Source: Haliotis cracherodii (lineage: Eukaryota). From it: DNA of 64,000 nucleotides. Positions 8,458-62,784 of this stretch are shown in pieces. Positions within the stretch are counted from its first letter, which is position 1; the number at the start of each line of letters is the position of its first letter. The position numbers were made by a program, and so were the translations under genes. The stretch is taken from positions 41,044,001-41,108,000 of the forward strand of contig NW_027266319.1 in the NCBI RefSeq assembly GCF_022045235.1, given 5' to 3'. The notes below the pieces were generated by a model, which was given only the letters and a program-made list of their open reading frames with translations, made no database searches and was not told the DNA's origin.

Positions 8458-9541
8458 ATGGGTGAACAGTCAACCATCGATTTGGACAACCGAGATCCCA
8501 ACAACATCAACGACCATTTGAAGGTATATTATTTATGTATCCTTATGTTTACGTATCACTGCATGCTGCCTTTGGATATCGCCGAACTGATTGTTAGATC
8601 AATTAATTGGATACAGAAATCGGACAAGCTTTGTATAACATGTTGTCCTAATGCAAAGACTCGTTAACATTTCCTTGTGAGAAATGTGCACACGAGAATG
8701 TTTGAATTAGAACTGATAAATTAATTATTACGCAAATGAATGTACAAATGGTGTACACAAGCATCAGTAGACAATATGAAGTAGTTGTTTCTCTTTCGGG
8801 CGAAACATTGTCATGAAATCTTTTTCATTACGAAAATAATATCATAACTATCCAAAAGAGAACTTCGATAATAACACATTGAAAATAAACGCCTTGAAAC
8901 TTCTATCTTCCTCATTTGTTGATGTGACCTCTTCTACTCCCTTCAAAACATTATGCCAAAACTATACGATTTTAGGCATCATTCAAAATACAATACAATA
9001 CAAATGGATATTTGGTAACACTATGAGTATGGTACATTATTTATCGCAGGCTAACTAAATTTACCCACTCATGATAACGTAACGGTATTGACAAATTAAC
9101 AAATATGTTCATCTGGACAATTATGATTTACTGAGAGTATTTCACAGTATCAAAGAGTGTAGTTCACAGATAATATGACGTCAAAGCTAATGTATCCTAC
9201 TTTACAACCCACAGGTCCAGTTCGAGGATGTCTTGGCGGAGCCCGAAGGTGCCCACAGCATTGACTGCTGCTGGAAGTTTACCAACACTTGCTTCAACTG
9301 CGCCTTCAAATGCTGCTACATGTTGATGACCCTGTGTGGACCTATCTACGGTCTCTGCTATGGTTGGCAGTACGCTATGCTTGCTTGTTCGCATATTTGG
9401 CAGTACACACCACAGATCAGAGCTTGCGAAATCAACTGTGTCATGCTGAGGAAAATATACACCATCTGCCTCAGTTGCTGCCTGACGCCATTCTGCGAAT
9501 CATGCGGTGGCTTCTTCAGCAGGATTCAAGTCAAACAGTAA
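8458..9541 (+). CDS. CAV: Caveolin, locus 2, 130 aa; exons 8458-8523 and 9215-9541
   Basis: MGEQSTIDLDNRDPNNINDHLK|GT...CCCACAG|VQFEDVLAEPEGAHSIDCCWK...FSRIQVKQ*; phase-0 intron; AATAAA at 9934. Confidence 0.95.
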
Positions 9542-9902
9542 CACAGAAACTATATTGAACTATCATGCCATTCTTACACAAAGTAAAGTATTATGTAAGT
9601 CTAATCCGGATGATTTTAGCTCACCATGCAATCAGTATTCGGAGCACAGTCAACTATTGGCCCTGTGGGTGGATCAGGAAGGAATGCTAAACACTGATGT
9701 TTTCAAATGAAGTCTTCAAGCCTTACAGTGATGTATTTCTTAGAAACGTGAACAACATTTATTCAACTGTCTAAACCATTATGAAAAAGTTATTCCCATA
9801 CAAAGTCGCGTGTTTATACCTATATTTCACTTGATGAAGAAACACTGAACAGAATTGCCATGTTCTGCATTTTCGTTTGTGTACCCTGGACATGTATTAT
9901 AG

Positions 9903-9939
9903 TGTACATATTTGTATACACATTTCTGGGATCAATAAA
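9903..9939 (+). terminator. 3'-end module TGTACATA...AATAAA, locus 2
   Basis: TGTACATA at 9903-9910 and AATAAA at 9934-9939, followed by a T-rich tract; same arrangement at most loci. Confidence 0.65.
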
Positions 9940-58182: not shown

Positions 58183-60399
58183 CAATAATGTCTGCAACTG
58201 TCCTGATATACTAGCACAAGATTTGGAATACTGTTACAGTATATTCGGATTTTTCCATTGATTTGTAAAAAGACTTTAAAAAAGCACTCACGCGTGTTAC
58301 TTCACACGTCAGGGCCAAAGTAATAACTACCACGGGATGCAGCCACTTTGCAGGAGCATTAACCCATGGAGCTGTTTGACAAAATATTTATCCATAATTT
58401 CATTTTGGGGGTCGAGATTATGTTAATATTTTCTATGGAAAAATCAGGTGACACAATTTTCGCTTTGTTCGTCTGTGTCAAGATACTGTCTTAATATAAG
58501 ACCTGGACATAAACCTGCACATAAACACTCAACTAACACATGGCTGTGATAAACAGTATTTACAACAAACGTTGTATGTTATAAAGAGAATAAACAAGAT
58601 GTACAGTCTAATACGTCGTTGTCATAATAATCACAATATCGACACCGAAAACTTCATCAAAAGGAATTGTGTTTTAGATCACAACAAATTAAATGTTGAC
58701 TTATGTTGCAGTCATCTATGTAACCATAATTTGTTATTATTGTCTTAACCAGACAGACCATTGTTTTATAGCATATATGACGACGCAGCACATTTTAACA
58801 ACCGTAGGAACACCAGTAGATATAAACATAAATTCAAAAACAGACCTAAACTCGACCAGTAGTCATGCCCATGCATTTGGTCTAATGAGTGTGAATGAGT
58901 TACATTTAAGTGAATATCATTTAAAAAGATATTCTGTCATCAGTGTGATCACTTGTCATATATCACAGATGAACTTAAGACTAGTTGGAGACTATTAGCA
59001 AAGGTTAAAAAATAATCTGGCTAGAGATCACCAGCAACCTCAGATAGGCCACCATCCTCAGACCTGGGGACTTGAGATACCTTTGCTACCTACATTGTAC
59101 CCCACCAGGATTTACACCATGCCCCTAACTACAGGAGGTTGCTTTAATTAAATTAAAATCAAGACGTTTACTACGATTAAAACTATGTAGGAAAACATAC
59201 CGTTGGTCAAATGTATCGCCTACAGTGAGACCTCGTTAGACTGGAGTTCGGAAACCATTCCTTCCGACCAATATATAAGGGATATATATTACAACGGACA
59301 ATATTCTAAACCATGATTTGTTAATCAGGACAATCAACTTAAACTGCCCGGATTAAACTTTTTTTAAGTGTGCCTGTCATTTCCATAAATAATTTCAAAG
59401 ATATTTAGACTTTATTCTCGTATTTAAAACAGTAATTATCTAAATCTGGCTCAGATACCTGCAGTACATATTAGACATAAAATCCACATATGTATGAAAG
59501 AAGTGAAATGCTGGTTAGAAAGGAGGGTAGCAGCCTTATATTTAGAATGGTAAACACTGTTGCTATGTGAGGTAAGCTAAAGCATCGCACACCCTCTACA
59601 CACACCAATACCGGAACCTGGCTTGGTCTACTTACTTACTTGTCATGCACAATTTGGTGAGACATGCATACCTTTATTTGACGCTTTGGGCTTACCCTAA
59701 CATCGAGTACATGAAGCGCCAGCTGAACTGACTCCATTGTGCGATCTTTATGACTGACCTTACTTCTGAAACCCACCCAGGTGAACATTCAGAGCAATCA
59801 AATTACATTCTCTCTTTTCACCTCCAGTTGAGAAACAGCCAACTCTTTTCTTAAACACATGTGTGTATTAGTAGAAAAGGAATTCAAGTGAGTATCGAAA
59901 CTAACGGCTTAGATTTACACCGCCACCACAATAGACGCACCCGTAGAGTCACTATCTGCTATTCACCGAAACAGCACCACAGTGGTGACAGTGAATGATT
60001 TTCGCTGGAGTAGGAAATCGTTAAATGGTCGTCAAGGGTACGCTAACAAACATAGTACTCCAGAGGACGGCGACACAGTGAAGCCACTTGTGCATGCTAG
60101 TCTTACTCTGTGAATCTGACGTTTTTGCTAAAATTAATTACATGGCCCTATCCGACCAATAGAAAACGGTTTCGTTGTGTGCGCACGTGCACCGATTGGT
60201 ATCTTAACGGTCGATGGAATTATAACTGTATGACGGGTTTCCGCTCTGAAATAGCATTGCCAAGCGGGAAAACAACCCTGTTACTAAGTAAACATATACT
60301 TAATAAAGAACAGAGAGGCCAACTGCCACTTTGTCTGCAAGAGCATCTTGCCCAGCATCATAACTCGTTGCGCCAAGTTCACCTGGTACCTTAGCAAAA

Positions 60400-62784
60400 A
60401 TGGACGAAATTGATATGGAGAACCGAGATCCCAACAACATCAACGACCATTTAAAGGTAAGAAAATAACCTGTTATCTTCAGTTAGGATATTTAAAATGT
60501 TGACTTTATAATCGGATTGTACTGGCAAACTGAAAACATCCTGACCAGATCCAATATTGGAAGAAGACAAATCAGATGTGAGAAACGTACGATGATTTAA
60601 CATTTTAAAGAACACGTCAAAGAAAGTTGATTCAGGTGTATCGTAGCACAGAGAAAATATTTCCAATTGAAAAAAACCCCAGCCAATTATGATTCTAATT
60701 TTTGAATTAATGAAAAGAAAATTTATAACTGACAACAAGCCAAGTAAGTGCAATTGTTGAATTAAAGATATACTTAAGAAGACAACTCTTTATCTTTCTC
60801 TTCTCTTGAAGACAGAAACATTATTGATCATTCACGGTTCCAACATCCGACAGAACATCTGGAGGTGTTGCTGTTATGATATGTTTGCAATTGACGACGC
60901 GATTCTTGATGCATGACAACAATCACCAAGCAACCAACAGTCACACACATTGTTCTTGTGGTCATAAACTAAACAACCGTAGGCTTTGGCAAAATATCTT
61001 TCATTCGTTATAGGAAATCAACTTTTCAGCTACTCCTGAGAGATAATTAAATGTTACAAACACATTTCTATCATAATAATGCGTTCATACAATGAAGCAA
61101 AGAGTGCATATTAATGGCTTATAAAAAATCTAGTCTATATTGATTTGTAGATTGATTGATTAAGGGTGAAGGTTGTGGTTGTTTTATTTTACTGGGTTGG
61201 TTTAGAAAAACAACGTGATAGACATAAATGTCTGCAGCTAGTAATAAGATACACCAATTAAAGAGAAACAAAGCATGTATATTAACAATTTAATGTTCTG
61301 CTGCAAACCTTCTTTTAGAAGATGTCATTAATCAAAATGTGTAGGCTTAGATGTCATTTGTAACCTGAAGCATTTTCGATTCTCAGCGTCATCCCCGAGG
61401 AACATCATAAAAACGATAATTATTCACCCGGGGGTGCACACAGTGGCATCCTTCGTTCAGTTCTAATCCCAAGGATTCTGGTCCCTTTTCATCATGATTA
61501 TGATTCGTGGTTTTCAGAACTGATCCGGGGTGAACAATTATTAAGAAATAAACGACGAGTTCAGCATAAGCATTTTGTCAACATATTTACAGAGGCTGTA
61601 CATAATGTTGATATCTCATATGAGCAATAATGGTCGTTTTTATCGTACAAAACACTGACGGGATGTATTCTACCTTCAGGGTATTATATAAGGTAACAAC
61701 TCCCACTCGTCGTTTATTTCTTAAAGTATGAAACTCTTTTGGTACAATTCTATTCACTTAGACTGTTCACGAAATAGTGATCGTTTTCGTATCGGATAAC
61801 CACATACAGACCATAGTCTGTACAACACAATGTACATTTATAACAATATGGGATGGGGGTGAGCCTTTTGCTGTCCTCAAAATGTTTTGGACAAAATAAT
61901 TTGCTCTCAGGTTTCACCCCCAAATATAAAATCACTGGAGACTGGACTTGTTGGATGTTCTGAAATATACAGTGTTGTCGTTCCCATAAATATACACACG
62001 TACCGGAAAGTATACTTCTAAGAAGATTTATCGTACGAAGGTTTATGGTGTAAAACTGCTACGATTTGTCGTGCGAAGGTTTCTGGAATATAACTGCTGA
62101 GATTTGTCATGCGAAAATTTCTGGAATATCTCTGCTAAGATTTGTCATGCGGAGGTTTATGGAATATCTCTACTAAGATTTGTCATGCGAAGGTTTATGG
62201 AATATCTCTGCTAAGATTTGTCATGCGAAGGTTTCAATGAACTATTTGAAAGCAGATGTCCTTGCTATTCATGCGTCAACATCTTCCGATGTTCCTTGTG
62301 ATTGTGTTCACTCACCAAAGACTTGTAGTGAAATGTGTAAAAGAATACCTGGTGATTTGTTACGGTCAATTATGTCCGTAAAGTCTAAATATATGAACAT
62401 GAAATAAATCCTAAGGCTATGTGGTATTTTTAACATGACGCCCTTTATTCGTTACAGGTCCAGTTCGAAGACATCTTGGCGGAGCCCGCAGGTGCACACA
62501 GCATTGACTGCTGCTGGAAGTTTACCAACACATGCTTCAACTGCGCCTTCAAATGCTGCTACATGTTGATGACCCTGTGTGGACCTATCTACGGTCTCTG
62601 CTATGGTTGGCAGTACGCCATGCTTGCTTGTTCTCACATTTGGCAGTACACGCCACAGATCAGAGCTTGCGAAATCAACTGCATCATGTTCAGGAAAATA
62701 TACACCATCTGCCTCAACTGCTGCCTGACGCCATTCTGCGAGTCCTGCGGTGCCTTCTTCAGCAGGATACAAGTCAAACAGTAA
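60400..62784 (+). CDS. CAV: Caveolin, locus 13, 127 aa; exons 60400-60456 and 62458-62784
   Basis: MDEIDMENRDPNNINDHLK|GTAAG...GTTACAG|VQFEDILAEPAGAHSIDCCWK...FSRIQVKQ*; AATAAA at 63191. Confidence 0.95.
61541..61724. mobile_element. 184-bp MITE-like element in the locus 13 intron
   Basis: Perfect 20-bp TIR ttaagaaataaacgacgagt / actcgtcgtttatttcttaa. Confidence 0.75.
62024..62235. repeat. 38-bp minisatellite, about 5.5 copies, locus 13 intron
   Basis: agatttgtcatgcgaaggtttatggaatatctctgcta; period 38. Confidence 0.9.

What the first reader, a model, noticed from the sequence alone, without database searches (positions are those of the whole stretch)
9215..62784. Exon-restricted mosaic homogenisation (gene conversion) among ten paralogues
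Seen: the 327-nt exon 2 is nearly identical, including most synonymous sites, in loci 2-5, 7 and 9-13, while introns and UTRs of loci 2, 11, 12 and 13 are barely alignable by eye. Variant sites assort independently. WK[F/C]T and TP[F/C]C occur in all four combinations (F-F: 2, 12, 13; F-C: 3, 5, 7; C-C: 4, 11; C-F: 9, 10). HIWEY is shared only by loci 5 and 10, and HVWQY by 4, 7 and 11, in each case across different flank lineages. PIYGLCYGWQ is shared by loci 2, 12 and 13 at opposite ends of the array. Inference: short-tract conversion keeps the oligomerising core compatible while shuffling a small set of variants, and promoters, N-termini and UTRs diverge.
Basis: partly seen in the sequence, partly recalled or inferred. 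Interest (0 to 1): 0.7.

Follow-up and report, generated by a model that had tools for sequence, protein, structure and literature searches.

The report
Abalone caveolin array patched by conversion
An abalone carries a row of ten similar caveolin (membrane-shaping protein) genes whose main coding exon is far more alike between copies than the DNA around it, likely because copies occasionally overwrite each other; one such likely overwrite left a visible scar, but this way of evolving is already known from other gene families.

Summary
The window holds 13 tandem two-exon caveolin loci: 10 similar intact genes, 1 divergent gene and 2 deleted copies. Eight of the ten proteins are identical to listed Haliotis database proteins. 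'Nearly identical' overstates it: exon 2 is 88-97% identical, mean dS 0.29, dN/dS 0.13. Between copies with unrelated flanks, fourfold sites are still 79% identical, against 33-38% at saturation, so conversion is likely. Recombination tests are moderately positive (PHI 5 of 8 settings; 1 of 45 pairs globally significant). The clearest event is a 483-nt locus-10 tract in locus 9. It includes intron and UTR, leaves a 114-nt scar, and its 3' part seems to postdate the split from a relative about 4% diverged. So conversion is exon-biased, not exon-restricted, and rare: loci 2 and 3 encode identical proteins in H. rufescens. PIYGLCYGWQ is probably the ancestral state. A chimeric assembly is unlikely. 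The 'oligomer compatibility' purpose is untested. The closest precedent is mammalian KRTAP1. This scan noted a similar caveolin array on other DNA (e1-9266695).

The parts
731..3548 (+). Locus 1: divergent caveolin (exon 1 731-787, exon 2 CDS 3216-3548); 45% identical to the ten, not part of the homogenised set
8458..9541 (+). Locus 2 caveolin (8458-8523, 9215-9541)
   Evidence: protein identical to P0007 (H. cracherodii and H. rufescens)
13462..15187 (+). Locus 3 caveolin (13462-13539, 14861-15187)
   Evidence: identical to P0008 (both species)
17367..18707 (+). Locus 4 caveolin (17367-17432, 18381-18707)
24077..25771 (+). Locus 5 caveolin (24077-24142, 25445-25771)
28468..30387 (+). Locus 6 pseudogene; exon 2 deleted after nt 49 to about nt 305
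31123..32948 (+). Locus 7 caveolin (31123-31188, 32622-32948)
32748..32833 (+). 86-nt tract identical between locus 7 and locus 11 (48743-48828); the pair differs at 26 other sites
   Evidence: global p=0.0001
36633..37981 (+). Locus 8 pseudogene; same exon-2 deletion as locus 6 but a different exon-1 type
39307..40800 (+). Locus 9 caveolin (39307-39363, 40474-40800)
40262..40295 (+). Decayed remnant of an older exon-2 start inside the locus 9 intron, followed by locus-10-type intron sequence (inferred older overwrite)
40395..40877 (+). 483-nt tract 97.1% identical to locus 10 (44261-44743): 79 nt intron, exon 2, 77 nt UTR; inferred conversion tract
40876..40914 (+). Displaced 39-nt end of the earlier locus 9 exon 2, followed by a locus-7-like UTR; junction at a short microhomology
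   Evidence: bridged by an independent contig
43389..44666 (+). Locus 10 caveolin (43389-43445, 44340-44666); inferred donor
47490..48943 (+). Locus 11 caveolin (47490-47546, 48617-48943); 132 nt identical to locus 4 (exon nt 76-207)
56290..58182 (+). Locus 12 caveolin (56290-56346, 57856-58182)
60400..62784 (+). Locus 13 caveolin (60400-60456, 62458-62784); exon 96.3% identical to locus 12, with similarity falling off at the exon ends

Best explanation
This is a tandem array of abalone caveolin genes whose 327-nt coding exon is much more alike between copies than their flanks, likely because purifying selection keeps the exon homologous and occasional DNA-level gene conversion between copies then resets its synonymous sites in patches. 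Shown: the genes; the exon-flank contrast; strong purifying selection (dN/dS 0.13); a locus-10-like tract with intron and UTR inside locus 9. Inferred mechanism: a break in one copy is repaired from a neighbour; copying normally stays where homology survives (the exon interior) and fades at exon edges; in locus 9 it likely overran the stop codon by about 75 nt and re-entered by microhomology, inserting 114 nt. Inferred rate: low. Mean dS is about seven times the non-coding distance to organism B, so each locus keeps its identity across species while interior variants are slowly exchanged. The likely selective role is dosage of a shared disc-forming core under partly diverged promoters; this is untested.
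For: Fourfold identity is 0.79 in 38 pairs with different flanks, against 0.33 (120 pairs) and 0.375 (59 pairs) for divergent caveolins with similar GC3, so codon bias does not explain it. Upstream p-distance versus exon dS: loci 12/13 0.48 vs 0.13; 4/11 0.38 vs 0.23; 9/10 0.39 vs 0.10; the young pair 4/5 gives 0.125 vs 0.19. PHI p<0.05 in 5 of 8 settings, including synonymous sites only (0.005, 0.036); locus 7-11 tract global p=0.0001. Incompatible site pairs 0.40 vs 0.28+/-0.06 in 400 clonal simulations, P=0.015; segment trees 127-216 and 217-324 reject each other. The exon block 127-216 rejects the flank grouping, p-AU 5e-7. Conflicting markers include two-base codon changes with a synonymous part. 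Locus 9/10: at 40426, 40749, 40803 and 40826 both window copies agree while organism B differs; at 40426 both B contigs differ together. B shows no contig bridging to the remnant. Synonymous identity drops at the exon's 3' edge (0.59 vs 0.82). A neighbouring four-copy subfamily shows the pattern more strongly.
Against: PHI is not significant at the usual window of 100 with all sites (0.066) or with one site per codon at windows 50 and 100 (0.096, 0.099); only 1 of 45 pairs passes the global tract test. The count of conflicting multi-site splits is not unusual (7 vs 3.5+/-3.7, P=0.18), and the whole-exon tree is not rejected by any of 3 segments. Flanks reject the exon grouping only marginally (p-AU 0.047; upstream alone 0.20). 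Within loci 3/4/5/7, dS is about equal to flank divergence. Orthologues are conserved across species, so there is no species-level clustering of the ten at protein level. Introns can become unalignable through indels and transposons faster than dS grows. The organism-B evidence comes from collapsed short-read contigs, and depth in one of three runs (X11) is ambiguous.
Confidence: 0.8

Rival explanations
1. Birth-and-death evolution by tandem duplication and unequal crossing-over, with strong purifying selection. The mosaic is homoplasy at tolerant sites, and the flanks decayed by indels.
For: dN/dS 0.13. Orthologues persist in H. rufescens and H. asinina. dS matches flank divergence in group 3/4/5/7. 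Two pseudogenes share one deletion but have different exon-1 types. Several tests were not significant. It probably explains part of the array.
Against: It does not explain loci 12/13 (dS 0.13 with near-saturated flanks), the 86-132 nt identical tracts between flank-unrelated copies, or the locus 9 tract with locus-9-type DNA retained on both sides.
Confidence: 0.13
2. Selection on synonymous sites (codon use, exonic splicing signals or RNA structure) holds exon 2 constant without exchange.
For: GC3 about 0.70 against about 0.39 background. Exon nt 34-132 is unusually invariant at third positions.
Against: Divergent caveolins with GC3 0.55-0.71 are near saturation at fourfold sites. It does not explain the intron and UTR tract in locus 9.
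Confidence: 0.04
3. Chimeric or collapsed assembly across similar exons.
For: No long reads were available to phase whole exons; no listed contig spans a whole exon.
Against: The genome is 1.18 Gb in 80 contigs. Loci 2 and 3 give identical full proteins in a second species' annotation. Contigs of runs X5 and X6 bridge the locus 9 junctions with few differences.
Confidence: 0.02
4. Conversion from reverse-transcribed mRNA.
For: Similarity often falls off at exon borders.
Against: The best-documented tract includes 79 nt of intron. Exon 1 and most of the 3' UTR, both in the mRNA, are not more homogenised.
Confidence: 0.01

Closest known systems
Mammalian KRTAP1 repeats (bioRxiv 10.1101/282418; abstract and one results section read)
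   Same: Tandem, cysteine-rich genes; coding region homogenised by short conversion tracts while flanks diverge; partial, patchy homogenisation.
   Different: KRTAP1 coding regions cluster by species. Here orthologues remain recognisable across abalone, and one tract crosses intron and UTR.
Type II caveolins, e.g. human CAV1 (PDB 7SC0; PMC12330381, passages read)
   Same: Pfam Caveolin; FEDVLAEP signature; pin-like exon-1 motif; E=4e-24 to CAV1, which has 11 chains in the structure.
   Different: 127-134 aa, no long N-terminus, 16-18 cysteines in exon 2, and 22 caveolin-like exon matches in this genome, 21 of them within about 150 kb.
Other tandem arrays with interlocus conversion (HMA4 of Arabidopsis halleri, Leishmania beta-tubulin, fungal ribosomal protein genes; search listings only)
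   Same: Conversion among paralogues reported in titles or abstract starts.
   Different: Not compared in detail; seen as listings only.
Lineage-specific caveolin clusters of Patella, Dreissena and venerid clams (database proteins)
   Same: Multiple near-identical copies on one contig; copies group by lineage (within species mean 88-96%; abalone vs others about 50%).
   Different: No DNA was available here, so conversion cannot be told from recent duplication in them.

Membership tests
Caveolin (PF01146) | Profile match above the curated cut-off | tested here: met
   90-94 bits for 3 of 3 exon-2 translations and 122 bits for P0001; cut-off 25
Caveolin (PF01146) | Signature motif and scaffolding region align with CAV1 | tested here: met
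   P0001 residues 5-128 align to CAV1 47-172
Type II caveolin | Pin motif present | tested here: inconclusive
   Exon-1 motif aligns with CAV1 47-62; the pin coordinates are recalled; no phylogeny against the paper's clades and no fold were run
Caveolin (PF01146) | Assembles into amphipathic discs | not tested
   No structure or complex prediction was run
Concerted evolution by gene conversion (KRTAP1 type) | Coding synonymous divergence well below flank divergence | tested here: met
   Met for the 38 different-flank pairs; not for pairs within 3/4/5/7
Concerted evolution by gene conversion (KRTAP1 type) | Clustered tracts or recombination signal | tested here: met
   PHI 5 of 8 settings; 1 of 45 pairs global; simulation P=0.015, second statistic P=0.18; moderate
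Concerted evolution by gene conversion (KRTAP1 type) | Paralogues closer within species than orthologues between species | tested here: not met
   At protein level orthologues are identical or closest across Haliotis; met only locally, at four locus 9/10 DNA sites
Concerted evolution by gene conversion (KRTAP1 type) | Abrupt transition at coding boundaries | tested here: inconclusive
   Abrupt for 12/13 and 11; crossed by the 9/10 tract
Concerted evolution by gene conversion (KRTAP1 type) | Polymorphisms shared among copies within a population | not testable with these tools
   Only collapsed contigs were laid; no phased population data

The most novel reading that the evidence does not exclude
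Mollusc caveolin clusters are divided into several separately homogenised subfamilies (at least three in this 150-kb cluster), each a co-assembling class whose shared disc core is actively held uniform by selected conversion while exon edges and promoters give each copy its identity. This would be a phylum-wide, little-noticed mode of caveolin evolution, with locus 9 preserving two successive overwrites by locus 10.
Probability: 0.25. Interest if true: 0.55.

Novelty: new member of a known kind. Interest (0 to 1): 0.36.

Why it matters
The mechanism is known. The value is a clean animal example with an internal control (young duplicates with dS about equal to flank divergence, old ones without) and a scar that shows how one tract ended. 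It also flags that some molluscs carry large caveolin arrays. My searches found no listed paper on these arrays or on conversion in caveolins (held library only; listings capped at 10-25 rows). If the subfamilies are co-assembly classes, the array would allow a test of whether hetero-oligomer compatibility selects for conversion.

Tried and rejected
Exon-restricted conversion: rejected by the locus 9/10 tract. PIYGLCYGWQ as end-to-end conversion: the divergent locus 1 has LCWG and CEFA at these positions, closer to the 2/12/13 state, so ancestry is simpler. Dating by H. asinina orthologues alone: scaling 4% per 4.3 Ma to 36 Ma allows up to about 35%, so dS 0.26-0.43 among loci 10, 11 and 13 does not by itself need conversion. 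Cross-species protein differences at paralogue-shared states (10 shared vs 7 novel, leaving out window-private residues and P0017, whose orthology is uncertain) were judged weak, because tolerant columns give the same result. The codon-model simulation crashed and was redone per codon position. The first read-laying was swamped by a high-copy repeat at about 41.7-42.0 kb. No fold or complex prediction was run. Only 15 of 34 members of the Haliotis cluster and 15 of 24 of the bivalve cluster could be listed. PHI and the tract test are my own implementations, not PhiPack or GENECONV. Flank lineages were assigned by eye. Supplements of the papers were not read.
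Full report
What is there. The window lies on a large contig of a 1.18-Gb, 80-contig genome. It contains 13 head-to-tail loci with a short exon 1 and a longer exon 2. Exon 2 encodes the Pfam Caveolin domain and aligns to human CAV1. Ten loci are intact and similar, locus 1 is 45% identical, and loci 6 and 8 share one internal deletion of exon 2. 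Eight of the ten proteins are identical to proteins annotated in Haliotis cracherodii among the 15 of 34 cluster members listed, and two of these also in H. rufescens. The genome search gave 22 matches, 21 of them within about 150 kb; the 11 outside the ten in that cluster are 45-51% identical to locus 2.

Checking the observation. The degree of identity is overstated: 70 of 327 sites vary, 37 are informative, identity is 88.1-96.9% in 45 pairs, mean dS is 0.29 and mean dN 0.039. Introns of loci 11, 12 and 13 give essentially no alignment to other loci; loci 3, 4, 5 and 7 share hundreds of alignable flank bases; locus 2 shares short ends with that group. Upstream regions keep two motif blocks in most loci.

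Is the exon more similar than it should be? Fourfold-degenerate sites are 79% identical in the 38 pairs with different flank lineages and 86% in the 7 same-lineage pairs. The same measure is 33% against the divergent caveolins (120 pairs) and 37.5% among them (59 pairs; the 7 near-identical pairs were counted apart). Codon bias therefore cannot account for it. The array has an internal control. For loci 4 and 5, upstream distance (0.125) is near exon dS (0.19). For loci 12 and 13 it is 0.48 against 0.13, for 9 and 10 0.39 against 0.10, and for 4 and 11 0.38 against 0.23 (13 pairs computed). Young duplicates thus look ordinary, while old ones have exons too similar for their flanks.

Is it mosaic? 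The evidence is moderate. My PHI implementation gave p<0.05 in 5 of 8 settings, including synonymous sites only, but 0.066 at the usual window. A GENECONV-like test gave 11 of 45 pairs at p<0.05 and 1 of 45 globally (loci 7 and 11, exon nt 127-212). In 400 clonal simulations the incompatible fraction was high (0.40 vs 0.28, P=0.015), but the number of conflicting multi-site splits was not (P=0.18). Two segment trees reject each other, yet none of three segments rejects the whole-exon tree. The block 127-216 strongly rejects the flank grouping, while the flanks reject the exon grouping only at p-AU 0.047. The 2/12/13 block resembles locus 1, so I infer it is ancestral and that the derived block spread among the interior copies. 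Both states occur in H. asinina, so this would predate the 36.4-Ma split reported in bioRxiv 10.1101/2024.09.16.613283 (passages read).

A datable event. Locus 9 carries 483 nt that are 97.1% identical to locus 10, covering 79 nt of intron, the exon and 77 nt of UTR. Directly after it lies a second 39-nt exon end and a locus-7-like UTR. Upstream lies a decayed exon start followed by locus-10-type intron. In organism A, contigs of run X5 bridge both junctions, and in X6 the shared segment has twice single-copy depth (45.9 vs about 22). In organism B, about 4% diverged in non-coding DNA (98 of 2352, 59 of 1506, 42 of 985), the locus 9 intron also ends in locus-10-type sequence, so the older overwrite predates the split. 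The locus-10-type UTR, however, is covered by one contig only in all three B runs, at single-copy depth in X7 and X8 and at ambiguous depth in X11, and no contig bridges to the remnant. At four sites both window copies agree and B differs; at 40426 both B contigs share the other base. I infer a locus 10 to locus 9 conversion after the split that overran the stop codon and rejoined at a short microhomology. If B is another Eastern Pacific abalone (not established), this is younger than about 4.3 Ma. The tract shows DNA-level copying and is not exon-restricted.

How often? Rarely. Loci 2 and 3 are identical as proteins in H. rufescens, locus 13 differs by 1 residue and locus 7 by 2. H. asinina has locus 11-, 13- and 9/10-type proteins with the same exon-edge residues. 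Mean dS is about seven times the A-B non-coding distance (inference). Synonymous identity is lowest in the last 45 nt (fourfold 0.59 vs 0.82 inside), as expected if tracts need homology on both sides.

Replicates. Just beyond the window, four copies (L016, L018-L020) differ at only 8 of 327 exon sites, while alignments extending into flanks fall to 81-85% or stop. A further pair (L014 and locus 1) agrees at 39 of 39 fourfold sites. Database proteins show lineage-specific near-identical caveolin sets in Patella, Dreissena and clams, without DNA to test the cause.

Function. The least variable stretch (codons 12-43, one variable residue) maps to about CAV1 77-109, which includes the scaffolding region (recalled). 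Diverse caveolins form discs (PMC12330381, passages read). Selection on the protein alone would preserve the homology that conversion needs.

Verdict. The pattern is real, exon-biased and infrequent interlocus conversion on a background of tandem duplication and purifying selection. It works like KRTAP1 but fails the species-clustering criterion of full concerted evolution. New member of a known kind; interest 0.36.

Noticed in passing
L016, L018, L019, L020 (G000:C56:41150882-41175039): A second caveolin subfamily of four copies about 8 kb apart; exon 2 differs at 8 of 327 sites (L019 vs L020 at 1) while flanks are 77-85% alike or unalignable. A stronger case of the same pattern than the ten in the window.
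   Followed up: partly
window 3216-3548 and L014 (G000:C56:41041174): Locus 1 and its upstream neighbour agree at 39 of 39 fourfold sites, with only about 18 nt of alignable intron.
   Followed up: partly
about 60-200 nt upstream of the ATG of most loci, e.g. window 8270-8350: Two promoter-like blocks recur: CACRTG...CCAAT and TGTAAACA followed by a TATA-like run. They resemble E-box, CCAAT and forkhead sites (names recalled, not tested).
   Followed up: no
window 28468-30387 and 36633-37981: Loci 6 and 8 share one exon-2 deletion (82% over 567 nt) but have different exon-1 types, suggesting unequal crossing-over.
   Followed up: partly
window 40623-40626 and 40772: Locus 9 has private changes W51C and F100C; its possible H. 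rufescens orthologue P0012 has other private changes (A30S, A59D), which may indicate relaxed selection.
   Followed up: no
window 10244-10753 (-): Tc3-type transposase fragment (PF01498). Inverted, 81-88% similar segments at about 11.6-12.7 kb and 22.0-23.0 kb look like further transposon relics.
   Followed up: partly
window 4382-6069; 50906-53207; 53875-54130; 62023-62234: Minisatellites with periods 45, 32, 22/44 and 38 between or within loci.
   Followed up: no
window about 41700-42020: A very high-copy genomic repeat between loci 9 and 10.
   Followed up: no
P0005 and P0038-P0047 (database): Patella caerulea has at least 8 near-identical caveolins on one contig, and Dreissena polymorpha at least 10 listed on three contigs.
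   Followed up: partly
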